From Thermodesulfobacteriota bacterium (GTDB taxonomy: Bacteria; Desulfobacterota_D; UBA1144; Nemesobacterales; JAJCZQ01): 64,000 nt of DNA. The translations under genes and the position numbers were made by a program. The stretch spans positions 1,088,001-1,152,000 of the forward strand of contig OZ244044.1 of the NCBI GenBank assembly GCA_965215275.1, written 5' to 3'. Under the pieces are notes generated by a model that did no database searches, was not told the origin of the DNA, and saw only the letters and a list, made by a program, of their open reading frames with translations. Shown here piece after piece: positions 4,815-18,043 of the stretch (position 1 is its first letter; every line of letters starts with the position of its first letter).

Positions 4815-6016
4815 TTTTTCACAATCCCTTTAAGAGAATTATCAATGATCGTGACCGCGGCGTCTATCTCTTTTTCGGATACCGTCAAAGGAGGCAGGAT
4901 TCTCATTACCGTCCCGGCAGTATGAATGGTAAGAAGCCCGTTCTCAATACACTTTGCGATCACCTTGCCGGCGATCTCAGAAGATATGAACTCGATCCCG
5001 ATCATCAGGCCCATCCCCCTTGTATCCTTTATTATATCAGGATGCTCGGCCTGTATACGGTACAGGCCCTTAAGAAAGTAGCTGCCCATATCACGAACGC
5101 TGCGCAGCAGTTTCTCATCGTTTATCGTTTCCAGAACTGCCAGTGCACAACTGACGGCAAGTGGATTCCCACCAAACGTTGTACCGTGCGAACCAGAAGA
5201 TATGGTATCTGCAACCTTATCTTTCAGTAAAACCGCCCCGCATGGCACTCCGCCGCCAAGCGCCTTTGCAACCGTTATGATATCAGGTTCAATCCCTTCA
5301 TGCTCATACGCGAACAGTCTGCCCGTTCTTCCCATACCGGTCTGTATTTCATCAAGTATCAGTAAAACACCTTTTTCATCACATATTTTTCTGACTTCGT
5401 GCAGATACCCCGGCTCGGGTACGACCACCCCGTTTTCCCCCTGAACCGGTTCCACTATTACCGCACAGAACTCATCTTCTTTCAGACATTCTCTCATGTG
5501 GTCCGTTTCTCCGTAAGGTACGAATTCAAAACCTTCGAGCATGGGCTTAAAACCAGCCTGGTACTGTTTTGCCCCGGTTGCACTTAAAGCACCATAAGTC
5601 CGTCCGTGAAAAGAGCCGTGCATGGACACGATGTTATGTTTTTTACCATTGAGAGTGCCCCATTTTCTTGCAAACTTGATCGCACCTTCAACGGCTTCGG
5701 TACCCGTATTGCAGAAAAACACCTTGTCGCAGACGGAATTCTCAACCAGATCTCTGGCAAGCCTTGCCTGCGGTTCCATATAAAAGAGATTAGACCCGTG
5801 GATGATCTCCCTGCTCTGCGAAGCTATTACGCTCAGAAGGGCAGGATGGGAATGTCCGAGGCTCGTTACTGCAATACCCGTGGTAAAATCAAGCAGCCGC
5901 TTACCTTCACTGTTCCAGACCCAGCAGCCTTTACCTCTTTTGATCGCCAAGGGTATTCTTCTGTACGTCCCAAGAACATACTTATCTACCTCGGAGATGA
6001 TCTCATCGGAGTTCAC
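4811..6016 (-). CDS. argD: Acetylornithine aminotransferase
   Basis: Class III PLP aminotransferase motifs SFHGRT, DEIQTGMGRTG, AKALGGG; arg operon context. Confidence 0.93.
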   Translation of the reverse strand: MNSDEIISEVDKYVLGTYRRIPLAIKRGKGCWVWNSEGKRLLDFTTGIAVTSLGHSHPALLSVIASQSREIIHGSNLFYMEPQARLARDLVENSVCDKVFFCNTGTEAVEGAIKFARKWGTLNGKKHNIVSMHGSFHGRTYGALSATGAKQYQAGFKPMLEGFEFVPYGETDHMRECLKEDEFCAVIVEPVQGENGVVVPEPGYLHEVRKICDEKGVLLILDEIQTGMGRTGRLFAYEHEGIEPDIITVAKALGGGVPCGAVLLKDKVADTISSGSHGTTFGGNPLAVSCALAVLETINDEKLLRSVRDMGSYFLKGLYRIQAEHPDIIKDTRGMGLMIGIEFISSEIAGKVIAKCIENGLLTIHTAGTVMRILPPLTVSEKEIDAAVTIIDNSLKGIVKK

Positions 6017-6894
6017 AGCGTTATCTCCGTTCCTATTCCAGCATCGGTAAAAAGTTCAAGTATCAATGCCCGTTCCAACGTACCATCTATAATATGGGTC
6101 TTTTCAACCCCTTCATGAAGTGCTTCAAGAGCGCAGACCACTTTCGGTATCATGCCCTGCGAGATGATATTTTTTCCGATCAGGTTTCGTACCTCGGACT
6201 CGGTCAGAGAGGAAATAAGCTCCTTTTGTTCATCAAGTATCCCCGGAACGTTGGTAAGAAATATCAATCTCGTGGCATTTAAGGCACCTGCGATCTTACT
6301 TGCCACGTGGTCGGCGTTTATATTATACGTACTGCCTTCATCATCATATCCTACAGGAGCGATCACGGGAATGTAACCTTTATCTTCCAGTGTCCTTATC
6401 AAACCGGGGTTTATCTTCTCTACTTCCCCGACCATGCCAATATCCGCATCTGGAGGGATGTTTATTCCGTTCTTTTCAGCAAGCCTGTCAAGGTTTATTT
6501 TTTTAGCTGTTATTATCTTTCCTTCCTTACCTGAAAGTCCGACGGCTTTTCCGCCGTAATGATTTACGCAGGAGATAATCTCCTGATTTACCTTGCCCAC
6601 AAGGACCATCTCCACGATCTCCATGGTCTTTTCATCGGTAACCCTGAGACCCGCTATAAATTCAGACTCAATACCCTGCTGATTGAGATATTCAGCTATC
6701 TGCGGACCACCCCCATGTACGACTACGGGCTTGATCCCAACGTACTTCATAAGAATAAGGTCGTGAGCAAAACTGGACAGTTCCTTCCTGTCGATGCTCC
6801 CGCCGTATTTTATCACCACGGTCCTGCCATGAAAGATCTTTATATAAGGCAGGGCCTCGACTAGGATCTGTGCCTTGTTCATAAGCTGTTCCAT
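6013..6894 (-). CDS. argB: Acetylglutamate kinase
   Basis: EALPYI, VIKYGG, VHGGGP, GLRVTD, NINAD, GMIPKV. Confidence 0.96.
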   Translation of the reverse strand: MEQLMNKAQILVEALPYIKIFHGRTVVIKYGGSIDRKELSSFAHDLILMKYVGIKPVVVHGGGPQIAEYLNQQGIESEFIAGLRVTDEKTMEIVEMVLVGKVNQEIISCVNHYGGKAVGLSGKEGKIITAKKINLDRLAEKNGINIPPDADIGMVGEVEKINPGLIRTLEDKGYIPVIAPVGYDDEGSTYNINADHVASKIAGALNATRLIFLTNVPGILDEQKELISSLTESEVRNLIGKNIISQGMIPKVVCALEALHEGVEKTHIIDGTLERALILELFTDAGIGTEITL

Positions 6895-7018
6895 ATTTAT
6901 CCAGCCGCCTTTAATTGTGAAAAAGATGAATATATATTATGGGAATTATATACTCTGTTAGACAAAGACAGGCAAATAGCTTTGATAGTGCTGTAAAATT
7001 AGGGAATTATATATAGAT

Positions 7019-8473
7019 ATGGATAGTGAAGGAAGTGTGATCAGAAAGACGAGAGTAGACCTCAGGGCGGTTAAGTTGGATCCGTCTGCTCATAAGAAAC
7101 TGGAATCTATGTTAAACCAGCTTACCTATCTTTATAACCGAGCTCGTGAAGAAAGGATAAGATCATATGATAAATATGAGAAACTGATGAAATGGGGTTT
7201 ATCAGAAAAGAGATTTAAGACGTATTTCTATCCCCACTGGAAGTCTGGACTTTCTTATAATAAAGGTAATACAGTTAAACATATAGACAAGGTATATATA
7301 GCTCTTAACAGGGTTAGAAGTGAAGTCCGACCTTGTAACGACCCGTTAAACTGGAGAGAGTTATCAGAAAAAGAAATAGGAAAGAAGTCGATCAGTTACG
7401 AAGATCAGGCAAGATCACTGACGGAAATAAGGAACGACCTTTTACTGTCTGATGAGTTTAGTAAGGTTGACGCTCAAGCGCAACAGCGGACGTTACAAAG
7501 ACTGGATAAGGCTTATAAAGAATATCTAAAAGGGATACGTGGTCGTCCGAGATATAAGAACAGTAGCAGAAAGATAAAAAGTTTTGAAACTTACCAATGG
7601 AGTAGAGTTAAGAAACAAGACAGAAGAACTTCCTTGTCCGTAAAAGGAGCAGGCAGGATGAGTTTCAAAGGCAGGATACCGGAAGGAACTAAATACATAA
7701 GGATAGTAAGAACTGCTTTAAGAGTAGAGATACAGTTTGTATATGAAACAGTTGCAGGAGTGGACAGAGGGTCAGACAGACCGATAGGGATAGATCTCGG
7801 AGTGAAGAACAGAATTACCTTATCGGATGGAACTTTCTATAAAGGAACAGAAATAGACAGGAAGGAACTTAAAAGAAAGCAAAGAGCATTAAGCAGAGCT
7901 GAAAAAGGATCTAACAACAGAAACAAGAAGAAAACAGCTTATGCCAAAGAACGTGCAAGGACCACTGAAAGGGAACATAATAAAATACATGAATTAACTA
8001 CAGGGATAGTAAAGGGTCATGGTAATCATTTTATAGTAGAAGATCTGAAGTTAAAGAACATGACAAAGTCCGCTAAGGGGACATTGAAAGATCCTGGCAA
8101 GAAAGTAAAGCAGAAATCGGGATTGAACAGGTCTATACAGGAGCAGCAATTGGGAAAGGTCATTAGTCAGCTTACTTACAAGGTTGAGAGCACTGGAGGT
8201 AAGATAACTAAAGTTCCATCCCAATACACAAGCCAGACCTGTTCTGCATGCGGATACGTAGCTAAAAATAACAGAAAAGGAGAGTTATTTAAGTGCATGT
8301 CCTGTGGTTATACAGGCCATGCTGACTTAAACGCAGCTAATAACGTTCTCAAAAGAGGTTTATTCTTTTTGTCGGGTGGGAATAAGGACGAGAGTCTCCC
8401 GATGCAAGCTGGGAACATGATATCAAAAGAGAACGGGGTCAGAGGGACTCTGCTTGCAGAACAGTATATTTAG
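7019..8473 (+). CDS. tnpB: RNA-guided endonuclease TnpB family protein
   Basis: RuvC-I IGIDLG, RuvC-II IVEDL, Zn finger CSAC..CMSC, RuvC-III ADLNAA.N, plus YTSQTC and RLDKAY..Y...RGRPRYK. Confidence 0.93.
   Translation: MDSEGSVIRKTRVDLRAVKLDPSAHKKLESMLNQLTYLYNRAREERIRSYDKYEKLMKWGLSEKRFKTYFYPHWKSGLSYNKGNTVKHIDKVYIALNRVRSEVRPCNDPLNWRELSEKEIGKKSISYEDQARSLTEIRNDLLLSDEFSKVDAQAQQRTLQRLDKAYKEYLKGIRGRPRYKNSSRKIKSFETYQWSRVKKQDRRTSLSVKGAGRMSFKGRIPEGTKYIRIVRTALRVEIQFVYETVAGVDRGSDRPIGIDLGVKNRITLSDGTFYKGTEIDRKELKRKQRALSRAEKGSNNRNKKKTAYAKERARTTEREHNKIHELTTGIVKGHGNHFIVEDLKLKNMTKSAKGTLKDPGKKVKQKSGLNRSIQEQQLGKVISQLTYKVESTGGKITKVPSQYTSQTCSACGYVAKNNRKGELFKCMSCGYTGHADLNAANNVLKRGLFFLSGGNKDESLPMQAGNMISKENGVRGTLLAEQYI
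8371..8470 (+). ncRNA. Candidate omegaRNA scaffold overlapping the tnpB 3' end
   Basis: Stem GTCGGG/CCCGAT and hairpin CAGAG/CTCTG. The segment recurs in three other places in the window, and TnpB guide RNAs are known to derive from the element right end. Confidence 0.5.
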
Positions 8474-8647
8474 TATTTGTATAATAGAGTATATAATTCC
8501 CTTGCTTAATGACAAGGTTCAACGAACTTACGGTCTGAAAGGGATAAGGTCCGAGTAAACAGTTCATCTGCTGAAGCAAATTGCTACAAATGTCCTTTAT
8601 TTATAATTTAACTAAGGTGTACTTTTGTAACGGTTTTAGGAATTCCG

Positions 8648-10225
8648 ATGATTAAACTATCTTCTCTGGTTCCATTTTTGATATTTTCCACCTGGCTGAT
8701 GCTTTCAGGAGAGATGGCAATATCCCAGGAAAGGCTGACCCTGTCCTTGGAAGAAGCCAAGACGACCGCACTTGTAAACAACAGGAACATAGAACTGCAG
8801 AAACAGAGCATAGGCTATGCAGAAGGTGACATAATAAAAGAAAAAGGGGCTTTTGATCCATTTCTGAGACTGAATACATCCTATTCCAATATTGAATCCC
8901 CCGTGATAAGTGCCTTTAATGAGAGCGGCAGATTAACAGAAAAAAGATTTAATATTGAAAACAGCGTAACCGGCAGATTATCAACGGGTACCTTCTACGA
9001 CCTGTACAGTTTCTCCGTTTCCAGAGTAGAGTCCGACTCGCCGGTAGAATCCCTGAACCCGGAGCTTTTTACATCTCTCGGCTTTGGGATTGGTCAGGAA
9101 CTGCTGAAGAACTTCGGTGTAAGCGTGAACAGGGCACGGCTGTTCGTCGCCAGAAAAAATCTGGAGATATCGAGGGTGCGGTTCGAGAAAGTCGTATCGG
9201 ACGTTCTGTTCGAGACAGAACAGTATTACTGGGATCTGGTCGCTTCCATACAGAACGTAAAACTTGAAAAAAGTGCACTGGAACTGGCGGAAGACCTGGA
9301 ACAAAGAAACACCGTTGAAGTAGAGGTCGGCACTTTACCGTCAGTAGCAATAACTCAGGCAAAGTCGGAGGTTGCTTTCAGGAACGTAAGTCTTTTAAAT
9401 GAGAAAAATTTAATGGAAAGGGCCGAGGATAAGCTTAAAAACGCTCTTGGACTGGTCTACAGCATCAAAGTCGTGCCGACCGAAAAGCCCGAGATCTACA
9501 TCGAAGAGAACATAGATGAGAACGAGGCACTTGCAACCGCTTTTAAAAACAGACCTGAACTTGCCGAAGTTTTGCTTGATATAGAGAAAAGTAAAAGACT
9601 GGTGAGATTTTATTCCAATCAGAAGTTGCCGAACCTGACAGTGAACGCCTTTTTGCAATTCCAGGGGGTGGGAGGGGACGAAAGATCAGACAGGTTGTTC
9701 TTTAATGCACAAAAGGAACCTATACAGGACAGTTTTCTGGGAGAATCAAAGGCGTTCAATACGCTTGTAAACAGGGATTTTCCCGGCTGGTCGGTCATGG
9801 GTACTTTCACCTATCCATTGTTCAACAGAGATGCCAAGGGGGATCACATAAAGGCAGTTGCAGAAATGAACAGACAGATGATCAGCTACAAGAAGGTAAA
9901 AGAGCAGATAGAACTTGAGGTCAGGGACGCCATAAGGGAGGTCAGGAACGGCAGAAAGAGAATAGACGCGACCCAGAAGGCCGTGGAACTGGCTGAAGAA
10001 GTGGTTATGAACGATGAAGAAAGACTTAAGGTCGGGATCGCTACCACAAGGGAAGTGCTCGAAGCACAGCGGGACCTGATCTATGCACAAACGGCACGGG
10101 TAGAAGCGATCGCTCAGTACAATATCTCTATCGCCGCTCTTGAAAAAGCCAAGGGAACGTTGCTGTTGAAAAACAACGTAGTGATCAAAGATAACGGCAA
10201 CTTTAACGTAGGTCTGGTTCAGTAA
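8648..10225 (+). CDS. TolC-family outer membrane efflux protein
   Basis: Signal peptide, LSLEEA..TAL.NN, two OEP-like repeats, G..T..EVLEAQ..L..AQ. Confidence 0.88.
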   Translation: MIKLSSLVPFLIFSTWLMLSGEMAISQERLTLSLEEAKTTALVNNRNIELQKQSIGYAEGDIIKEKGAFDPFLRLNTSYSNIESPVISAFNESGRLTEKRFNIENSVTGRLSTGTFYDLYSFSVSRVESDSPVESLNPELFTSLGFGIGQELLKNFGVSVNRARLFVARKNLEISRVRFEKVVSDVLFETEQYYWDLVASIQNVKLEKSALELAEDLEQRNTVEVEVGTLPSVAITQAKSEVAFRNVSLLNEKNLMERAEDKLKNALGLVYSIKVVPTEKPEIYIEENIDENEALATAFKNRPELAEVLLDIEKSKRLVRFYSNQKLPNLTVNAFLQFQGVGGDERSDRLFFNAQKEPIQDSFLGESKAFNTLVNRDFPGWSVMGTFTYPLFNRDAKGDHIKAVAEMNRQMISYKKVKEQIELEVRDAIREVRNGRKRIDATQKAVELAEEVVMNDEERLKVGIATTREVLEAQRDLIYAQTARVEAIAQYNISIAALEKAKGTLLLKNNVVIKDNGNFNVGLVQ

Positions 10226-10383
10226 AATATATAAAAGCAGATAAACAGTGTTCAGTCAGCACAAGCCGAATTATTTAATTTGGGAATTATATACAATAGT
10301 GACGAAGCCTCCAATAAATAGTTGACAAACTATAGATTTGTCATTATTACAGGTAAGAAAATTAAATAACTGGAGGAAGTTAT

Positions 10384-11325
10384 ATGTCAAAGAAAGCACC
10401 TGGGAAATCATACAGGAAAGGGATATCGTTAGTAAAGTTATTCAGGAAATTCCCTTCTGATGCTGTTGCAGAGGAATGGTTTGTAAAACAGAGGTGGGGA
10501 AAGGAACCCGTATGTCCGTATTGCGGGACAAGAAACGTTCAGACCGGGACTGGTCATAAGACAATGCCGTACAGGTACAGGGAAAAAGGACGTTCGAAAT
10601 GGTTCAGTGCAAGGAGCAGGACAGTTATGCAGTCTTCTAATATCAGGTATCAGGCTTGGGCAGTGGCAATATATCTTTTTGCCACGTCATTAAAGGGAGT
10701 ATCAAGTATGAAACTGCATAGAGATCTGGATATTACGCATAGGTCAGCATGGCATTTATCGCATCGTATCAGAGAGGCGTGGAACAGAGAAGAACTGCAA
10801 GTGTTTACAGGCTCCGTGGAGGCAGATGAGACGTTTACAGGTGGAAAGGAGAGAAACAAGCATAACAACAGGCGTAGTCATACACGAGGACCTGGAGGGA
10901 AGTCCATTGTTGCAGGAATGAAGAACAGAGAGACAAACAGGGTAACAGCACAACCGGTTTCTGAACGTAGTAAAGAGGAAATACAGGGTTTTACAGTTAA
11001 GAACGCAGGTAGTGGAGTAAAAACATATACCGATGATCATAAAAGCTATACAGGGTTGCCTTATGAGCATGAGAGCGTGGATCATAGTGTAAGGGAGTAC
11101 GTTAAAGAGCAGGCACATGTAAACGGAGTGGGATCGTTCCGGGCAATGTTAAAAAGAGGATATACCGGCACGTACCACAGAATGAGTAAAAAGCATTTAA
11201 ATCGTTATGTAAATGAGTTTTCGGGGAGGCATAATATAAGAAGACTGGACACGGAAGATCAGATGGGAACAACAGCAAGGGCAATGTATGGAAAGACCTT
11301 GCCTTATAAAGAACTGATAAGGTAA
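10384..11325 (+). CDS. IS1595-family DDE transposase, probably inactive
   Basis: CPYC Zn ribbon, KGVSSMKLHRDL, VEADET, YTDD, RYVNEFSGRHN. NGVGS replaces the usual NGIES/NGVES. Confidence 0.9.
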   Translation: MSKKAPGKSYRKGISLVKLFRKFPSDAVAEEWFVKQRWGKEPVCPYCGTRNVQTGTGHKTMPYRYREKGRSKWFSARSRTVMQSSNIRYQAWAVAIYLFATSLKGVSSMKLHRDLDITHRSAWHLSHRIREAWNREELQVFTGSVEADETFTGGKERNKHNNRRSHTRGPGGKSIVAGMKNRETNRVTAQPVSERSKEEIQGFTVKNAGSGVKTYTDDHKSYTGLPYEHESVDHSVREYVKEQAHVNGVGSFRAMLKRGYTGTYHRMSKKHLNRYVNEFSGRHNIRRLDTEDQMGTTARAMYGKTLPYKELIR

Positions 11326-11377
11326 TATGAATAATGTTACAGGATAAAAAACAGACCAAAAAACAAAGAAACTTGCA

Positions 11378-11566
11378 ATGACGAACAGGAAAAAAACAAT
11401 AGAGATCTTGCCAGGCAGTTATGAACCGACAGAAGAAGAGAAAGAGCATCCGTTTTCTATTGATACAACTCCGCAAAAGTCAGCAAAAGCTATCCTCCAG
11501 CCTGTCAACGTTAAAAAGAAGGATGTAAAGAAACACGTTGCTGAACGTTCAAAAAACAGGAAATGA
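11378..11566 (+). CDS. Small passenger ORF inside IS1595 copy 1
   Basis: 62-aa Lys-rich ORF that fills the space between the transposase and the right TIR. Confidence 0.55.
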   Translation: MTNRKKTIEILPGSYEPTEEEKEHPFSIDTTPQKSAKAILQPVNVKKKDVKKHVAERSKNRK

Positions 11567-11708
11567 TCCAGGTTTCGTCACTATTGTATATAATTCCCAT
11601 TTAATTTAACTGTCTCAAATACTTTTATTTTTGATATAACTTACTGAAATAATTTAGTTTTTATTGACAAAATGGTTATTATATAATATACTTTTATACA
11701 TACTAATA

Positions 11709-12185
11709 ATGAAACTTTTTAACAGACTGAATAAAAAAGTCACTAAGTTTTTGTCAAAAAAAGTCCTATTCAAAAGGTTTATCTCTAAAAAAAGAGATAA
11801 AAAAGACATATGTCAATTAATCCCTAATATAATAAATGCTGATAATAATTGCGCTCTTATTGCACTTCATCTTTTGTTTCCAAAAATTCCGGAAGATAAA
11901 ATATTAGACGCATTTTACCATTGTTGCGAAAAGTGGCCAAATGAGGGAGTTACAAACAAAGAGTTTAATATTGCTCTTAAATTTTTAAACCTGGACAAAA
12001 AAGTTTGTTATCACGGAAATGAAACAATTGTTCAATTACTATTAGCACATAAAGATAGAGCTTTTATAAGTTTAGTACACGGACACTTTTTGGTTATTTC
12101 GTTCGGTAGAATTTTAGAGTTTTTCAGTTGTTATTGGACTAACTGTAAAGAAGCAAAAGTCTATTGTTATTGGGAAAAACTTTAG
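11709..12185 (+). CDS. Hypothetical protein, possible papain-like (C39-like) cysteine peptidase
   Basis: AT-rich ORF with NNCALIAL and VHGHFLVI motifs. Start ATG 11709 chosen instead of TTG 11664. Confidence 0.5.
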   Translation: MKLFNRLNKKVTKFLSKKVLFKRFISKKRDKKDICQLIPNIINADNNCALIALHLLFPKIPEDKILDAFYHCCEKWPNEGVTNKEFNIALKFLNLDKKVCYHGNETIVQLLLAHKDRAFISLVHGHFLVISFGRILEFFSCYWTNCKEAKVYCYWEKL

Positions 12186-12814
12186 CAAGGGGCATAGTTT
12201 CTGTATTTTTTATGACATTTGCGAAACTCTTTAGACTCTGGATTTTGCAAATGATGTAACAGCATCATAAATCCAACTGAAGTTGCCTCCATTATTATTG
12301 CTGTATATGAACCGTAATCGCCATAACCATCATCGCCGGCGTTTTCTAAACTTAGAGGCTTTGGGTTCCAAAAGCAGGTATATTCTGAAAAGTGTTTTTT
12401 GATACCAACACCAATAGAAAGCGTTTTAATGATTTCTCCTGCTCTGCCAACTTCATTGCACAACTCGCCACAAGTAATACGAGCATCATTGGTATCTGGA
12501 ACATTAATAACAATCTGAGAATCACTTACAGTATCCCTCGCCTTTATAGCTTCTGAAGGAATGTCTGGAGTGTGTCTTTTCAGATGATGGGGTATGATCT
12601 TGATTTCAATTTCTGAGTTAATAAGGTTTGTTAATTTATCTTTTAAAACATAAACTTTATATTTACCAATATCAGTCCGTATGAAATTTCCTCTGTTTAG
12701 GTTGCTTATATCAACTTTATCCCCATCTATAAGAGCTAAATGTTTAGCCCCAGTCCTTACTAACATTTCAGCAAATACACTTCCAACGGCACCGCAACCA
12801 ACAATACAAAATTT
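12182..12814 (-). pseudogene. ThiF/MoeB/E1-like adenylyltransferase, 5'-truncated by IS1595 copy 2
   Basis: IVGCGAVGS, IDGDKVDISNLNR, DIGKYKV. The ORF-track start (12847) lies inside the IS. Confidence 0.75.
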
Positions 12815-12855
12815 GGGAACTATATAGGAAAGTTGACAAAATCCCATAACTCCCT

Positions 12856-13041
12856 TTAATCATTAACTTCTTTTATAAGAGGATTTCCTTTAGGATCTAC
12901 TACTAATTTAAACCTTTTTTTCAGTTCTTCTTTGGTTGGTTTTTTAGGTCGTTTATGCGGGATCGAACCCATTTTTAACAACATCTTTGATGCTTTATCT
13001 ATTGCTTGTTCTTTTTCTTTTTTTGCTTTTAATCTTTTCAT
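12856..13041 (-). CDS. Small basic passenger ORF inside IS1595 copy 2
   Basis: 61-aa Lys-rich ORF between the transposase and the TIR, in the same position as in copy 1. Confidence 0.55.
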   Translation of the reverse strand: MKRLKAKKEKEQAIDKASKMLLKMGSIPHKRPKKPTKEELKKRFKLVVDPKGNPLIKEVND

Positions 13042-13095
13042 TATAAAACAAATAACTATTAAATATGATCAAGACTCCTCCATCATATGTCATCA

Positions 13096-14017
13096 TTACT
13101 GTGTTAACTCTTCAAAGGTTATAGTTTTTCCTGCCATATTTCTAAAAAGTGCATCCAGTTGATCTTGCGTGTCTGTTTTTACATTACCTTCATTTAACCT
13201 GAACGAAAACTCATCTATATATTTCTTAAGATGTTTTTTATTCCAATTGTGATATACACCTTTGTATCCACCCTTTAATACTGCCCAGACACTTTCAACC
13301 CCGTTTGTAGAAGCCATCGTATTTACAAACTCTTTTGCCCAATGATCGACCGTCTTATGCTCAAATTCTCTATCTGATAAACCTCTGTATCCTCTATGCT
13401 CATCTGTGTATATAATGGAACCTTCTGCAATGTTCTCTTTTATCTCTCTTGAAAGAGTTTCACTCTCTCTGTTCCGGATCACTTTTGCTCTGGTTCTGCC
13501 TCCCTTCTCCCTCATACCTGATATACAGACCTTTCCTGCAACTCCTCTGCCTTTATTTCGTTTCTTGCTCCCGTGCTTGTTCTTCTCAAGTCCACCTATG
13601 TATGTCTCGTCTATCTCTACTTCTCCTTTCAATAATACTTCCATATTACTTCCACAAGCAAGTCGCAACCTATGCAGCATATACCAGGCTGTTGTCTGGG
13701 TTACTTCTAACTCCTTGCTCAACTGTAAACTGCTTATTCCCTTTCGGGAAGTCATAAGCAAATATCCTGCAAATATCCACTTCCGCATACTCAAGTGGAG
13801 TGCCTGTTAAAGCAGTAAAATAACTCCGGCATTCCTTACACCAATACCTGCCATATGGTTTCTTCTGTCGTGTTATTTTCTTGCTGCTTCCACACTTTGT
13901 GCAGTTTATTTTCTTTCCCCAGCGTAATCCCTCAAAATACTTAATTACAGATTCTTTTGCAGGATACTTTTCCATTAACCCAAATAAACTGACCGTCTTC
14001 ACATGTCTTTTTTTCAT
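13096..14017 (-). pseudogene. IS1595-family transposase, frameshifted near 13790
   Basis: The N-terminal part (CTKC..YWCKEC Zn ribbon) and the C-terminal part (KGISSLQL, VEIDET, YTDE, NGVES) are in different frames. Confidence 0.9.
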
Positions 14018-14129
14018 ACAATAAATATGATCTTCTATCATCTCTTGTCAACTCTTGTGTCAATATATCCCCTGTTTTGTCAACTTCCCTATATAGTTCC
14101 CTAAGAAAGGAAAGAGAAAGACGTTATAC

Positions 14130-14205: not shown

Positions 14206-14286
14206 CCCCCCCCCCCCGTGTATACCTGACCTTTCAGCCTGGTATAAATATTTTGTAAGAACAATGTTTAAGATAATCCCCCCCCC
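14206..14286 (+). repeat. Two poly-C tracts (C12 at 14206-14217, C9 at 14278-14286)
   Basis: Counted directly; homologous tracts occur in paralog 2. Confidence 0.9.
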
Positions 14287-17200
14287 ATCTAAGTTATTAC
14301 TAACCTTAGTCTTTATTCTACTGAGTATCATGGTCATAGCTGCAAAAGGGCAGAGCAGCCTGGAAGAAACATTATCTGAATGCAGAGATATCAGTGCAGG
14401 TCTGGAAGATCCGTTATACGGATGTCAGTGGCATCTGAATAACACTGGACAGTTAAGTATTTCCGGAAAGAGAATAACAGCAGGAGAAGATATTAACGCA
14501 GAGGGAGTATGGAACGAAGAGGTATATGGTACTGGAATTAACGTAGCAGTTGTAAGTAATGGAATAGACCTTTCACATGAGGACCTTTCTGCTAAGGTCC
14601 GTTCGGAACTGAACTACAACTTTTCTGGAAAAGATAATTCAGACAGTTCAGAGTTAAGTGGTACACGAGCGGCAGGAGTAACGGCAGCGGCTGGATATAA
14701 CGGACTGGGAACAAGAGGAGTTGCACCTGGTGCGAGTATATACAGTAATAAGTTAACAGGAGATCTCAGGGAATCAGACGCAATGGAAGCAGGGGAAGCA
14801 ATGGTGCGTAATAAAGAAATAACTGCAGTATCCGTCAGCGACCGGGGATCTGAGGACGGAGTTTTTCTTCAGGGTGCTTCGGCTGAGTGGGAAGAGGGAG
14901 TGGAAGAGGGTATAAGGGAAGGGTTTTACGGCAGGGGAATATTTTACGTCCTGGGAGCAGGGGACGGACATGAGAGCGGAGATCAGGCTAATTTTTCTGA
15001 ATATTCCAATTACTACGGGGTAACAGCGGTGTGTTCAACGGACGGTTCTGGAAAGAAGAGCTTGTTTTCAGAAGAGGGAGTGAATCTGTGGGTATGTGCG
15101 CCTGGTCCTGATATAGCGACCACTGATAGCGACGACGATCACGCCGTGACGTCCGGAACTGTCCTTTCAGTTTCACGGGTCGCAGGTGTGGCGGCACTGC
15201 TGAGAGAGGTAAACGAAGACCTGAGCTGGAGGGATATAAAGCTTATACTTGCGGGTTCGGCACGGCAGAACGACGTTCCTGACATTAGCTGGGAGACTGG
15301 AGCGGTAAAATACGGTTCCGACGTGGAAAGATACAGATACAGTTCGAAATACGGTTTTGGCGTGGTGGACGCGGAGGCGGCCGCAGAGCTTGCCGGAAGC
15401 TGGAAAGGAGTGGGAGAAATGAGGACCGTTACAGCTTCCTCGGATAATGAACTGACGATCCCTGATGGAGAAGGAGAGGCGGACGGGGTCCTTACCTCCA
15501 GACTTATGATTTCGGACCTGGAGGAAATATTTACGGAGTTCGTTGAGGTAGAACTCGTTCTCTCGTGTGACTGCCTGCAGGACCTCAATATACGGATAAC
15601 CTCTCCTTCCGGGACAGTATCGGAACTTGTGCGGGAGTCTGCCAGTGAGTTTGTAAGGGGATCTTCGAATGAAGAAAACGACTGCGTCAGTTACCTGGGG
15701 AAAAAACATCGTTTCGGTTCGGCAAGACACCTCGGGGAAGACCCTTCCGGAGAATGGACCCTTAAGATATATAATACTGCTTCCGGAGATGAAGAAGATA
15801 CAGAAAATACCGTTACCCTGCACTCATGGAGCATCAGGGTATACGGGCACGGGAAGGAAGATACTTTAACGGACTTTGGCGGGGAGATCACTGCCAAGGC
15901 TTTAACTTTGGGTAATGTTCCTGGTGGTAGGCTGACCTGGACGCAACATAAGCTGGTAAACGCAAGGTTATTCGAGGCAGCCGGAGGCAGGCCGCCGTAT
16001 ACTTACAGTTTAGCTCCTTTACCTCCTGGATTGAATTTTAACGGAACCACCAGAATTATAAACGGGAGACCGACCGCTGCAGGTGACACCGACGTTCAGT
16101 ATACGGCAAGAGACGCAAATAACGATACGGCACGGAGTGACTTCGTTATAAGGATAACGGCGAACGCCGCGCCGGTTTTTGGCAGCAAGACGGTTGCTGC
16201 TCAGGTGTACACGGCAAGGAAAGCAATAGAACCATTGGAACTTCCCGAGGCAACGGGAGGGGATGGAACCTTGACTTACAATATAAGTGGTAACGTCAGG
16301 GGTATAGGGTTGAACTTTAACCGTAACACAAGGATACTGAGCGGAATGCCCACCAGTGTTACGCCTGGTATTACAGCCGTTTATACCGCCACTGACGCAG
16401 ATGGAGATACTGCCGAGCTGAGGTTCAATATACGGGTAAGACATCAGAACGACATACCGACCTTCGGCAGTCAGATGGTAGATGATCAGAATTGGGTTAA
16501 CGGCAGTGCGGTAAGGCTAACGCTGCCTCGTGCAAGAAACGGGAATGGAACGTTAACCTACGGTATAACCCCTGCTTTGCCTGATGGACTGGACTTTGAT
16601 CCTGGTACCAGAGTGCTGAGCGGAACACCGACCGCTGCGGCACCTGAGAACACTTACACGTATACGGTAACGGACAGTGATAACGATATTCATGAAAGTG
16701 ATTCTGACAGTCTGACCTTCAGGATAAGAATAAAAGCTGCAACTGAAGTCCCAAGTTTCGGCAGTCAGACGGTAGGTAATAAGATTTATACAGCAGGGGT
16801 TCAAATATCACCATTCACGTTACCTCTTGCAACGCAAGGAACTGGAATTACACTCAGGTTAACCCCTCGTTTACCTTCCGGATTGAATTTTAACCATGCT
16901 ACCGGAGAGATAAGTGGAATACCGACCACTGCAACGTCTGAGACTGATTATACATGGAGAGCAACGGACAGAGACGGATATACGGCTGAGATAACGTTCA
17001 GTATAACGATAAGAGCAGCAGACACGGAACCGACCTTCGGCGGTGAGACGACGGATGATCAGGAATACGTGGCAGGAAGTCAGATAACGCCGGTAACGCT
17101 GCCAGTGGCAACGGGAGGAAATGCTCCGTTAGCCTACGGTATAACCCCTGATCTGCCTGCTGGACTGGACTTTGATGAAAACGCCCGAGTGCTGAGCGGA

Positions 17201-18043
17201 ACACCTACTACTGCAACGAGTAAGAATACCTATACATATACTGTAACGGACGAAGATGGAGACACGGATGAAATTGAGTTCGGTATCACCGTGTCGGAGG
17301 ACACAATGCCGACCTTCGACGGTGAGACGATAGAAGACAAGGTGACCGTTAACGGCGTTACAGAAGTAATGGAAACGCTGCCTCTTGCAACAGGAGGGAA
17401 CGGAACGCTGACTTACAGTTTAACTGATGCCGGTTCAAATGCTTTGAATTTATTTGCCGGACTGGACTGGGATGACAACACCCGGGTGCTGAGCGGAACA
17501 CCCAATATCGGTTCAGCGCTGCTTCATCTGCTTCCTCGAACCGAGACTTACACGTGGACGGTAACGGACGAAGATGGAGATACAGCAGAGATAACGTTCA
17601 GTATAGTAATAGAAGAAGACAGCATGCCGGAATTCAGTGTGACGACGATAGAAGATCAGGTGTACAGGGGGAGATCAATAATGTTGCCGGTAGCAACGGG
17701 AGGGAATGCACCGTTAGTATACAGTATAACGCCTCCCTTACCTCCTGTATTGAGATTGAACGAAAACACCGGGGTAATAAGCGGGACGTCCGTCCGTGCG
17801 TCATCTGCTGCTACTTACAGGTATACGGTAACGGACAGGGACGGAGACATGAAAGAGTTGACCTTCAGGTTCAGTGCAGCGGCTCCGCCACCGACAAGTA
17901 GTAATTCAGGCGGAGGTGGAGGATGTGCTGTATCAGATCAGAGCATCGCCATTTTTGATATTCTCGGAGTAATGGCATGTCTGATACTTATACCCGTGTC
18001 TGTAATTATCAGAAGGAAAAGAAGATCTCAGATAAAGACTTAG
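14264..18043 (+). CDS. Surface protein: degenerate S8 subtilase + proprotein convertase P-domain + ~7 putative Ig (He_PIG-like) repeats + C-terminal sorting signal
   Basis: DPLY..QWHL.N, LSWRDIKLIL, YGFGVVDA, L.I.ITSPSGT, GEDPSGEWTL, repeated LP.GL.FD..TR.LSGTPT and TDxDGD, tail GGGGGCAVS-TM-RRKRR. Confidence 0.85.
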   Translation: MFKIIPPPSKLLLTLVFILLSIMVIAAKGQSSLEETLSECRDISAGLEDPLYGCQWHLNNTGQLSISGKRITAGEDINAEGVWNEEVYGTGINVAVVSNGIDLSHEDLSAKVRSELNYNFSGKDNSDSSELSGTRAAGVTAAAGYNGLGTRGVAPGASIYSNKLTGDLRESDAMEAGEAMVRNKEITAVSVSDRGSEDGVFLQGASAEWEEGVEEGIREGFYGRGIFYVLGAGDGHESGDQANFSEYSNYYGVTAVCSTDGSGKKSLFSEEGVNLWVCAPGPDIATTDSDDDHAVTSGTVLSVSRVAGVAALLREVNEDLSWRDIKLILAGSARQNDVPDISWETGAVKYGSDVERYRYSSKYGFGVVDAEAAAELAGSWKGVGEMRTVTASSDNELTIPDGEGEADGVLTSRLMISDLEEIFTEFVEVELVLSCDCLQDLNIRITSPSGTVSELVRESASEFVRGSSNEENDCVSYLGKKHRFGSARHLGEDPSGEWTLKIYNTASGDEEDTENTVTLHSWSIRVYGHGKEDTLTDFGGEITAKALTLGNVPGGRLTWTQHKLVNARLFEAAGGRPPYTYSLAPLPPGLNFNGTTRIINGRPTAAGDTDVQYTARDANNDTARSDFVIRITANAAPVFGSKTVAAQVYTARKAIEPLELPEATGGDGTLTYNISGNVRGIGLNFNRNTRILSGMPTSVTPGITAVYTATDADGDTAELRFNIRVRHQNDIPTFGSQMVDDQNWVNGSAVRLTLPRARNGNGTLTYGITPALPDGLDFDPGTRVLSGTPTAAAPENTYTYTVTDSDNDIHESDSDSLTFRIRIKAATEVPSFGSQTVGNKIYTAGVQISPFTLPLATQGTGITLRLTPRLPSGLNFNHATGEISGIPTTATSETDYTWRATDRDGYTAEITFSITIRAADTEPTFGGETTDDQEYVAGSQITPVTLPVATGGNAPLAYGITPDLPAGLDFDENARVLSGTPTTATSKNTYTYTVTDEDGDTDEIEFGITVSEDTMPTFDGETIEDKVTVNGVTEVMETLPLATGGNGTLTYSLTDAGSNALNLFAGLDWDDNTRVLSGTPNIGSALLHLLPRTETYTWTVTDEDGDTAEITFSIVIEEDSMPEFSVTTIEDQVYRGRSIMLPVATGGNAPLVYSITPPLPPVLRLNENTGVISGTSVRASSAATYRYTVTDRDGDMKELTFRFSAAAPPPTSSNSGGGGGCAVSDQSIAIFDILGVMACLILIPVSVIIRRKRRSQIKT

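What the first reader, a model, noticed from the sequence alone, without database searches (positions are those of the whole stretch)
6941..8501. Intact-looking tnpB enclosed by IS1595-type terminal inverted repeats
Seen: tnpB with RuvC D/E/D and the Zn finger intact is the only gene between ~29-bp TIRs (26/29 identical). The outer 13 bp, GGGAATTATATAC, are identical to the TIR of the IS1595 element 1.8 kb away, and no Y1 (HUH) or serine TnpA is present. A second GGGAATTATATA copy lies 61 bp inside the left end. Known: prokaryotic TnpB normally travels in IS200/IS605 (subterminal hairpins, no TIRs) or IS607, whereas TIR/DDE hosts are typical of eukaryotic Fanzors. Inference: this is a TnpB captured by an IS1595-family DDE system and mobilised in trans; I do not recall this pairing being described. 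Caveat: no TSD is visible (left flank ...TATATTAT, right flank TTGCTTAAT).
Basis: partly seen in the sequence, partly recalled or inferred. Interest (0 to 1): 0.88.

Follow-up and report, generated by a model that had tools for sequence, protein, structure and literature searches.

The report
TnpB family riding IS1595 transposon ends
This is one of 19 copies in the genome of a small mobile element that carries only an RNA-guided nuclease gene (tnpB) between the ends of cut-and-paste IS1595 transposons; it is likely moved by a transposase encoded elsewhere, and its insertion sites carry a one-sided two-base motif that changes with the nuclease residues predicted to read it, so the nuclease likely decides which insertions persist.

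Summary
Observation confirmed. This is not a one-off nested insertion. The genome holds 19 full-length tnpB-only elements with GGGA(A/C)TTATA-type inverted ends; 12 of 19 have an 8-bp target duplication (TSD) matching at 7 or 8 of 8 bases. The same elements occur in a related genus, in Gammaproteobacteria and in Binatia, in two separate TnpB lineages. No IS200/IS605 or IS607 transposase was found. The neighbouring IS1595 is not the best partner and lacks its catalytic Glu. The predicted guide-RNA scaffold uses the right inverted end as its pseudoknot. A purine lies just outside the left TSD at 64 of 65 sites (29 of 65 on the mirror side, 33 of 52 control ends). That base and TSD base 1 track the residues aligned with ISDra2's TAM readers Q80 and S56, suggesting a TAM that straddles the TSD edge. 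Only 2 and 4 independent switches support this, so it is unproven. TnpB in DDE/TIR elements, including solo copies moved in trans, is published (Altae-Tran 2023), and their DDE-5 note may describe this same thing. IS1595 was not named in what I read. This scan noted the pairing before (14 notes, at least 9 genomes, including this one). New variant of a known kind.

The parts
6931..6933 (+). Predicted TAM position (T-A-T): the base outside the left TSD (6932, A) as TAM -2 and TSD base 1 (6933, T) as TAM -1
   Evidence: Inference from family-wide one-sided bias and residue mapping to ISDra2; coordinates
6933..6940 (+). Left flank octamer TATATTAT, the left TSD copy by position; the matching right copy is missing in this assembly
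   Evidence: 4/8 match to the right flank; in run X7 a contig has 8 extra bases directly after 8501
6941..6969 (+). Left terminal inverted repeat, IS1595 type
   Evidence: pair I4; best match to autonomous IS1595 ends 40/50 over both ends
7002..7013 (+). Inner GGGAATTATATA copy 17 nt before the tnpB start; among the 19 full-length elements only the three subfamily-A copies have it; overlaps a promoter-like match (6982-7010) that is no more frequent than chance
7019..8473 (+). tnpB, 484 aa; RuvC D259/E341/D436, C4 zinc finger; about 68-aa insertion in the REC region shared by subfamilies A, A2 and B; predicted TAM-reading residues Y127, A131, Q156
   Evidence: dN/dS 0.15-0.41 among copies, 0.53 for the closest pair
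8371..8502 (+). Predicted omega-RNA scaffold overlapping the last 34 codons: stem 1 (8372-8376 with 8398-8402), loop GGGAA 8378-8382 pairing with the terminal TTCCC 8497-8501 (pseudoknot), stem 2 (8403-8409 with 8452-8458), terminal hairpin formed with the right TIR
   Evidence: compensatory changes; no Rfam match; not shown to be transcribed
8473..8501 (-). Right terminal inverted repeat; doubles as the 3' end of the predicted RNA scaffold
8503..8518 (+). Predicted guide segment taken from the right flank (start inferred one base outside the element)
   Evidence: Inference by analogy with ISDra2 geometry
10282..11598 (+). Neighbouring IS1595 element (tnpA 10384-11325, 313 aa, NF033547 above cut-off, catalytic Glu replaced by Gly); same family, not the closest TIR partner
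12815..14101 (-). Second IS1595 element with a transposase split over two ORFs; its TIR type resembles TnpB subfamily C

Best explanation
The element is one member of a multi-copy, transposase-less family that carries tnpB between IS1595-type inverted ends and is likely mobilised in trans by IS1595 DDE transposases, while its TnpB, predicted to use a guide RNA running through the right end into the flank, would cut the empty version of the insertion site and so favour copies that landed next to its short TAM. SHOWN: family, ends, 8-bp TSDs, no internal transposase, purifying selection on tnpB, one-sided insertion-site bias. INFERRED: (1) an IS1595 transposase makes the staggered 8-bp insertion; (2) the RNA scaffold ends in a pseudoknot between an internal GGGAA loop and the element's last five bases, takes TSD base 1 as its last scaffold base, and uses TSD bases 2-8 plus flank as guide; (3) the TAM therefore straddles the TSD edge (for this protein about 5'-(T)AT-3', for subfamily C 5'-(T)GT-3') and is read by the Q80- and S56-equivalent residues; (4) the filled allele is spared because the guide-matching DNA is preceded by the element's own CC end; (5) an empty sister or excised allele with the TAM is cut and repaired from the filled copy, so only TAM-flanked insertions are driven to fixation.
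For: 19 of 19 full-length copies have IS1595-type ends; 9 have 8/8 and 12 have at least 7/8 TSD match, against 3 of 342 mismatched pairs. TIR types pair with autonomous IS1595 ends: D 47-48/50 with an element carrying a 326-aa transposase, C 42-47/50, B 40-43/50, A 37-41/50. No IS607 or IS200 TnpA found. 17 of 19 frames uninterrupted; dN/dS mostly about 0.2. 85 of 134 relative loci have paired ends; 56 of 79 distinct ones have at least 7/8 TSD. Same ends in Arenicellales and Binatia records, whose 4 tested genomes all encode IS1595 transposases. Purine outside the left TSD at 64 of 65 sites against 29 of 65 on the mirror side and 33 of 52 ends of TnpB-free elements. In this genome subfamily C has G there in 7 of 8 against 0 of 26 control ends. 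Residue 156 (ISDra2 Q80; contacts TAM -2): R goes with G in 39 of 40, Q with A in 6 of 6. Residue 131 (S56; contacts TAM -1): A/S/F/Y go with T at TSD base 1 in 24 of 24, C/Q with A in 20 of 23. In the second TnpB lineage TSD base 1 is A in 24 of 24 against 8 of 24 at the mirror position. Scaffold: 96.5% and 97.0% of cells paired, 28 and 67 double changes, 0 of 500 shuffles. The pseudoknot spans five pairs ending one base before TSD base 1, the same span (-6 to -2) as in ISDra2.
Against: No activity, RNA or transposition was measured. No empty allele was seen in 4 laid runs. The window copy itself has no TSD; the 8 extra bases in run X7 match the left octamer at only 4 of 8 ungapped positions. 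7 of 19 copies, including all four of subfamily B, lack a good TSD. Residue 156 was picked after the fact from 46 discriminating columns, and the tree gives only 2 changes for it and 4 for residue 131; all agree with the base changes but the sign test cannot reach significance. Sites are phylogenetically related, so the Fisher p-values overstate. The pseudoknot has one compensatory change in this genome (3 copies of subfamily B) and none in 39 relatives, where its fifth pair is broken in 10. I drew the structure from these same sequences, and the window RNA folds no better than shuffles (z -0.53). No autonomous element matches the window's TIRs better than 40/50. Control elements are few (52 ends) and are themselves purine-rich.
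Confidence: 0.7

Rival explanations
1. TnpB-assisted target choice: the TnpB-RNA complex binds its TAM and steers the IS1595 transpososome to insert at a fixed distance from it, so the bias arises at insertion, not by later selection.
For: The bias is almost absolute (64 of 65) and holds for near-identical young copies (dS 0.013-0.015). TnpB-free IS1595 elements persist at unbiased sites in the same genome, so plain loss of unprotected copies is not obviously fast. The RNA contains the right TIR sequence.
Against: No gene for an adaptor; catalytic residues intact and invariant; TnpB is reported as not needed for transposition in IS200/IS605 (PMC13565253 passage); a homing drive also predicts near-absolute bias among fixed copies.
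Confidence: 0.12
2. Passive passenger: tnpB is just one of many cargo genes in IS1595 shells, and the site bias is the orientation-dependent target preference of the particular transposases that serve each TIR type.
For: The same ends also bracket methyltransferase-like and S8-peptidase genes in this genome. TIR type and TnpB subfamily are partly confounded.
Against: Elements with C-like TIRs but no tnpB have A or T, never G, outside the TSD. Within one genus the base follows the residue rather than the clade (L217, L174). The scaffold co-varies with the TIR. tnpB is under purifying selection.
Confidence: 0.1
3. TnpB is kept for a function other than homing (binding or repression at the flank, or defence against incoming DNA), with the TAM bias a by-product.
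For: No empty site was observed; subfamily D has N in place of G after the first catalytic Asp and A-type proteins carry a large REC insertion.
Against: Each guide has only one full match in the genome, its own right junction; D/E/D intact; guides would change with every jump.
Confidence: 0.05
4. One-off nesting of an IS605/IS607 element inside an unrelated IS1595 MITE.
For: The window copy has no TSD and has a second TIR-like copy inside the left end.
Against: 19 of 19 copies, two TnpB lineages and three phyla share the layout; no IS200/IS607 transposase found.
Confidence: 0.02

Closest known systems
DDE-transposase-associated TnpB branches DDE-1 to DDE-6 and solo TnpBs with the same ends (Altae-Tran et al. 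2023, PMC10691335; section 9, passages and supplement part 3 read; Fig. 4 and Additional Files 10-11 not held)
   Same: Prokaryotic TnpB between inverted terminal repeats; tnpB 3' end close to the right end; solo copies moved in trans. Their supplement notes a TA motif 8 bp upstream of the predicted end in DDE-5, which resembles the bias seen here.
   Different: Those branches were defined by a DDE gene within 1 kb, whereas no element examined here contains a transposase. The text names IS630; a review names ISL2, IS630 and IS1031 (PMC13565253 section 6.2); IS1595 appears only in a profile list. No scaffold, TAM-residue or selection analysis in the parts I read. Whether DDE-5 is an IS1595 system could not be told.
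IS200/IS605 TnpB, type ISDra2 (PMC10097598, passages read; PDB 8h1j, 8bf8) and the tnpB-only IS1341 group
   Same: Fold, D/E/D and zinc finger, RNA overlapping the end of the ORF, five-pair pseudoknot before the guide, Y52/S56/Q80-equivalent residues.
   Different: TIRs and 8-bp TSDs instead of hairpin ends without TSD; no Y1 TnpA; the TAM is not fixed by the transposase's target sequence, appears only 2-3 bases long and differs between subfamilies in one genome.
IS607 TnpB and Fanzors on TIR transposons (Yoon et al. 2023, PMC10711439, passages read; review PMC13565253)
   Same: Flanking host bases are taken into the RNA scaffold (one base in IS607, the TSD in eukaryotic transposons) and the 5' TSD contributes to the TAM.
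   Different: Here only the first of eight TSD bases is predicted to be scaffold/TAM, seven are guide, and the main TAM base lies outside the TSD, where the transposase shows no matching preference; bacterial hosts.
IS1595-family elements with passenger genes and non-autonomous derivatives (family traits partly recalled; profiles PF12762, NF033547)
   Same: End sequence, 8-bp TSD, AT-rich targets, cargo carriage.
   Different: The cargo is an RNA-guided nuclease whose RNA is fused to the right end, and insertion sites are one-sidedly biased.

Membership tests
TnpB (OMEGA nuclease) | WED/REC/RuvC fold with D-E-D and C4 zinc finger | tested here: met
TnpB (OMEGA nuclease) | Structured omega-RNA at the right end with a pseudoknot before a flank-derived guide | tested here: inconclusive
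   Stems supported by double changes; pseudoknot conserved with one compensatory change; no RNA data
TnpB (OMEGA nuclease) | TAM-dependent RNA-guided DNA cleavage | not testable with these tools
   Only indirect: site bias and residue tracking
IS1595 family (non-autonomous member) | Terminal inverted repeats of the type found on IS1595 transposase elements | tested here: met
   40/50 for the window copy, up to 48/50 for subfamily D
IS1595 family (non-autonomous member) | 8-bp target site duplication (family value recalled; seen on autonomous copies) | tested here: met
   12 of 19 in the genome, 56 of 79 in relatives; not met by the window copy itself (4/8)
IS1595 family (autonomous member) | Encodes a DDE_Tnp_IS1595 transposase | tested here: not met
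   No transposase inside any of 19 own or 85 relative elements
IS1595 family (non-autonomous member) | Mobilised by an IS1595 transposase in trans | not testable with these tools
   Intact candidates exist in the genome
IS200/IS605 (incl. IS1341) | No TIRs, no TSD, hairpin ends served by Y1 TnpA | tested here: not met
   TIRs and TSDs present; only a RAYT-like Y1 hit; NF038281 below cut-off
IS607 | Serine recombinase TnpA, no TIRs, no TSD | tested here: not met
   (0 matches, genome 99.87% complete); NF038280 below cut-off
DDE-5 branch of Altae-Tran 2023 | Placement in that TnpB branch and identity of its transposase | not testable with these tools
   Figure and additional files not held; best plasmid hits only about 35% identical

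The most novel reading that the evidence does not exclude
A widespread, old partnership, formed at least twice, in which TnpB lives only as cargo of IS1595 shells, has built the transposon end into its guide-RNA pseudoknot, and dictates where its element sits through a 2-3-base TAM that straddles the TSD edge and is re-programmed by single residues (Gln reads A, Arg reads G). In its boldest form the TnpB complex steers the DDE transposase at insertion, a minimal forerunner of RNA-nuclease-assisted transposition; either way the family is a natural catalogue of compact nucleases with very short, residue-predictable TAMs.
Probability: 0.3. Interest if true: 0.85.

Novelty: new variant of a known kind. 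Interest (0 to 1): 0.6.

Why it matters
Why a cut-and-paste transposon would keep TnpB is an open question (PMC13565253 section 6.2). Here the transposase does not set the TAM, so the one-sided, subfamily-specific insertion bias is a natural experiment: it points to TnpB activity shaping which insertions survive, with TnpB-free elements in the same genome as controls. It also gives testable predictions for the guide start, the TAM and a two-residue TAM code, and suggests compact TnpBs with TAMs of only 2-3 bases, which would be useful for editing if they prove active.

Tried and rejected
Empty allele: none seen; no joints in 4 runs laid on window 5800-11900, all contigs, which show presence and not absence. 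The detail of the X7 allele rests on that one call. No RNA holder listed. Rfam: no match. Promoter scan: 3 found against 4.2 expected. Metagenome scan: 80 loci kept of 127, all distant (28-40%), none with these ends. Viral scan by protein: 78 loci, those long enough to test had none; viral scan by end motif: of 120 matches 80 were checked, 0 with tnpB, 4 with IS1595 transposase. Plasmids: best hits 33-35% identical, not followed. No match at E 1e-3 in the 4 genomes of the host's own family (80-99% complete). Neighbouring IS1595 as specific partner: rejected. Y1 hit as IS200 TnpA: rejected (RAYT-like, below cut-off). Second genomic targets of the guides: none with a full match. Tree-based test of residue-base co-evolution: concordant but too few switches. 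Paired ends could be recovered for only 11 autonomous IS1595 elements among the relatives' loci; many carry long cargo or swapped flanks. Literature: searches gave no paper naming TnpB inside IS1595 ends; the 9 papers and 6 were seen as listings only. Subscription papers and bioRxiv supplements are not covered.

Full report
OBSERVATION. The element spans window 6941-8501 (1561 bp). Its ends form a 29-nt inverted pair, 26/29 complementary. The only gene is a 484-aa tnpB at 7019-8473 with PF01385 and PF07282, above the general TnpB cut-off and below the IS200/IS605- and IS607-specific ones. D259, E341, D436 and the four zinc-finger cysteines are present and invariant among 30 homologues. An AlphaFold2 model (mean pLDDT 78.6) matches ISFba1 and ISDra2 TnpB best. 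The flanks match at 4 of 8, so this copy has no TSD.

A FAMILY, NOT A ONE-OFF. The single-contig genome (1.99 Mb, 99.87% complete) has 203 sites within one mismatch of the end 12-mer and 19 full-length tnpB copies plus fragments. All 19 are bounded by this end type and carry no transposase. They fall into subfamilies A (3), A2 (1), B (4), C (8) and D (3). Nine have a perfect 8-bp TSD and 12 match at 7 or more of 8; among mismatched flank pairs only 3 of 342 do. 17 of 19 reading frames are uninterrupted, and dN/dS between copies is 0.15-0.41, 0.53 for the closest pair. For the window copy, a contig from run X7 carries the element at the same locus with 8 extra bases right after 8501. They share TATTAT with the left flank but match it at only 4 of 8 positions ungapped, so loss of the right TSD is likely, not shown.

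WHICH TRANSPOSASE. No IS607 serine recombinase was found. The one weak Y1 hit is a 271-aa RAYT-like ORF far from any tnpB. IS1595 transposases are abundant. Comparing both 25-nt ends with 23 other IS1595-type elements: D matches 47-48/50 an element with a 326-aa transposase, C 42-47/50 another group, B 40-43/50 an element with a 307-aa transposase, and the window copy 40/50 two elements with 314- and 317-aa ORFs. The neighbour at 10282 scores 35/50 and has Gly where intact paralogues have the catalytic Glu. Mobilisation in trans is inferred, not measured.

DISTRIBUTION. TnpB above cut-off occurs in 29 of 36 genomes of one genus in the same order, and IS1595 transposase above cut-off in 28 of 36. 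I examined 134 relative loci: those returned plus 80 that I fetched from the listed matches; some are the same place fetched twice. 85 had paired ends; after removing exact duplicates 79 remained, 56 with at least 7/8 TSD. Of the 49 without a pair, 31 belong to the same two clades and 30 of these show at least one end-like motif on a looser search; 18 are distant TnpBs (26-47% identical) with no such pair. A protein identical to one of these is named Candidatus Dadabacteria by its source. A FastTree tree separates lineage I (A, A2, B, C and most relatives) from lineage II (D and the rest), with other TnpBs between them (local support only), so the capture probably happened at least twice. A sister protein led to 27 genome loci; of the 19 close ones, from Arenicellales, other Gammaproteobacteria and Binatia, 7 had paired ends with at least 7/8 TSD and 2 more had paired ends, and the same scaffold motifs are visible. 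All 4 of those genomes tested encode IS1595 transposases.

THE RNA. The last 130 nt overlap the final 34 codons, which the model leaves disordered. A five-helix structure with a pseudoknot gives 96.5% paired cells and 28 double changes in the 16 lineage-I copies of this genome, and 97.0% and 67 in 39 of 43 lineage-I relatives; 0 of 500 shuffles reach these values and slid controls fall to 34-54%. I drew the structure from these sequences, so the controls lean in its favour, and the window RNA folds no better than shuffles. The internal loop GGGAA is complementary to the element's last five bases. It changes to GGGAC with GTCCC in 3 of 4 B copies, shows no double change in the relatives and a broken fifth pair in 10 of 39, and recurs in the unrelated lineage-II scaffold. 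The inner right TIR forms a hairpin with real covariation in the relatives (pairs 112-140 and 113-139). In ISDra2 the pseudoknot spans -6 to -2 (PMC10097598, passage); the same span here makes TSD base 1 the last scaffold base and starts the guide at TSD base 2.

THE INSERTION-SITE BIAS. That geometry predicts TAM -1 at TSD base 1 and TAM -2 at the base outside the left TSD. At 65 distinct sites with a TSD, a purine lies outside the left TSD in 64, against 29 on the mirror side and 33 of 52 ends of TnpB-free elements (Fisher p 8e-13 and 3e-7, overstated by kinship). Within this genome, subfamily C has G in 7 of 8 against 0 of 26 control ends, and the others have A in 11 of 11 against 15 of 26. 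Scanning lineage I for residues that separate A- from G-class gave 46 columns, of which residue 156 was the only one invariant in the G class. It aligns with ISDra2 Q80, which bonds the -2 adenine. In 47 sites, Arg goes with G in 39 of 40, Gln with A in 6 of 6, Leu with A in 1 of 1. Residue 131, aligned with S56 that contacts -1, goes with T at TSD base 1 in 24 of 24 (A/S/F/Y) and with A in 20 of 23 (C/Q), while the mirror position is mixed. In lineage II, TSD base 1 is A in 24 of 24 against 8 of 24 at the mirror position. On the tree the residues change only 2 and 4 times; every change agrees with the base, but this cannot reach significance. Each guide's only full match is its own right junction, preceded by TCCC.

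MECHANISM. Most likely (0.7): an IS1595 transposase inserts the element at AT-rich sites; if the site happens to carry the TAM, TnpB cuts any empty allele and repair from the filled copy spreads it, so TAM-flanked copies dominate. Rivals: TnpB steers insertion (0.12); transposase preference with tnpB as passenger (0.1); another TnpB function (0.05); nested one-off (0.02). If the window copy has lost its right TSD, its own empty junction would no longer present the TAM (inference).

PRIOR ART. Altae-Tran 2023 (PMC10691335; section 9, passages, supplement passages and part 3) reports six DDE-associated TnpB branches with inverted ends and solo TnpBs moved in trans, and a TA motif 8 bp upstream of the end in DDE-5. 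IS1595 occurs there only in a profile list; Fig. 4 and Additional Files 10-11, which I could not see, may bear on novelty. A 2026 review (PMC13565253, section 6.2 and passages) names ISL2, IS630 and IS1031. Yoon 2023 (PMC10711439, passages) describes flanking bases taken into the scaffold in IS607 and Fanzors. Searches found no paper naming this pairing. This scan noted it before: 14 notes in at least 9 genomes and one on another copy in this genome; none came up for the pseudoknot and subfamily-TAM wording.

VERDICT. Real, well supported, a new variant of a known kind. The architecture is partly anticipated in print; the TAM geometry and residue code are the new and testable part. Interest 0.6.

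Noticed in passing
window 14264-18043 and G000 701394-704180, 1273849-1276602, 1336464-1339270, 289800-292708, 372873-376692, 451918-454876, 1028600-1033127, 1496306-1500591: IS1595-type ends bracket at least eight paralogous genes for large proteins resembling the window's S8 peptidase / P-domain / He_PIG protein; two have a 7/8 or 8/8 TSD, and a TIR-like end lies at window 18264. A host surface-protease family may be amplified as IS1595 cargo.
   Followed up: partly
window 6941-8501 against G000:C1:1618044-1619604 (L320): Two copies with dS 0.015 differ at 14 of 50 TIR positions, both ends changed together. End swapping or gene conversion of the interior; unexplained.
   Followed up: partly
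G000:C1:1616480-1619604: Two TnpB elements sit back to back with only their two 8-bp TSDs between them; another (1624687-1626004) lies inside the remnant of an A-type copy.
   Followed up: no
L054:1364-2734, L036, L037:861-2560: Distant TnpBs (33-39% identical) also lie between inverted repeats of other types; L054 has GGC-starting ends and a perfect 8-bp TSD, L037 a 20/20 inverted repeat.
   Followed up: no
L281-L289 (G059): A genome with 40 IS1595 matches and no TnpB match; many copies have flanks swapped between copies, as from recombination between elements.
   Followed up: partly
window 7175-7380: Subfamilies A, A2 and B carry an insertion of about 68 aa in the REC region, modelled with low confidence.
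   Followed up: no
window 11664-12847: Between the two IS1595 elements lie an AT-rich 173-aa ORF with no Pfam match and a convergent ThiF-family ORF.
   Followed up: no
window 10282-11598: The neighbouring IS1595 has a 9-bp direct repeat (ATTTAATTT) rather than 8, and runs X5, X6, X7 and X10 show loose ends at its borders, so it may be absent or placed elsewhere in some strains.
   Followed up: no
G000 675417-678070, 1002026-1005187, 1304051-1307389, 1516018-1519071, 1812584-1815955: Autonomous IS1595 elements carry one to three passenger genes, several looking like DNA methyltransferases by their N-terminal sequence (not scanned).
   Followed up: no
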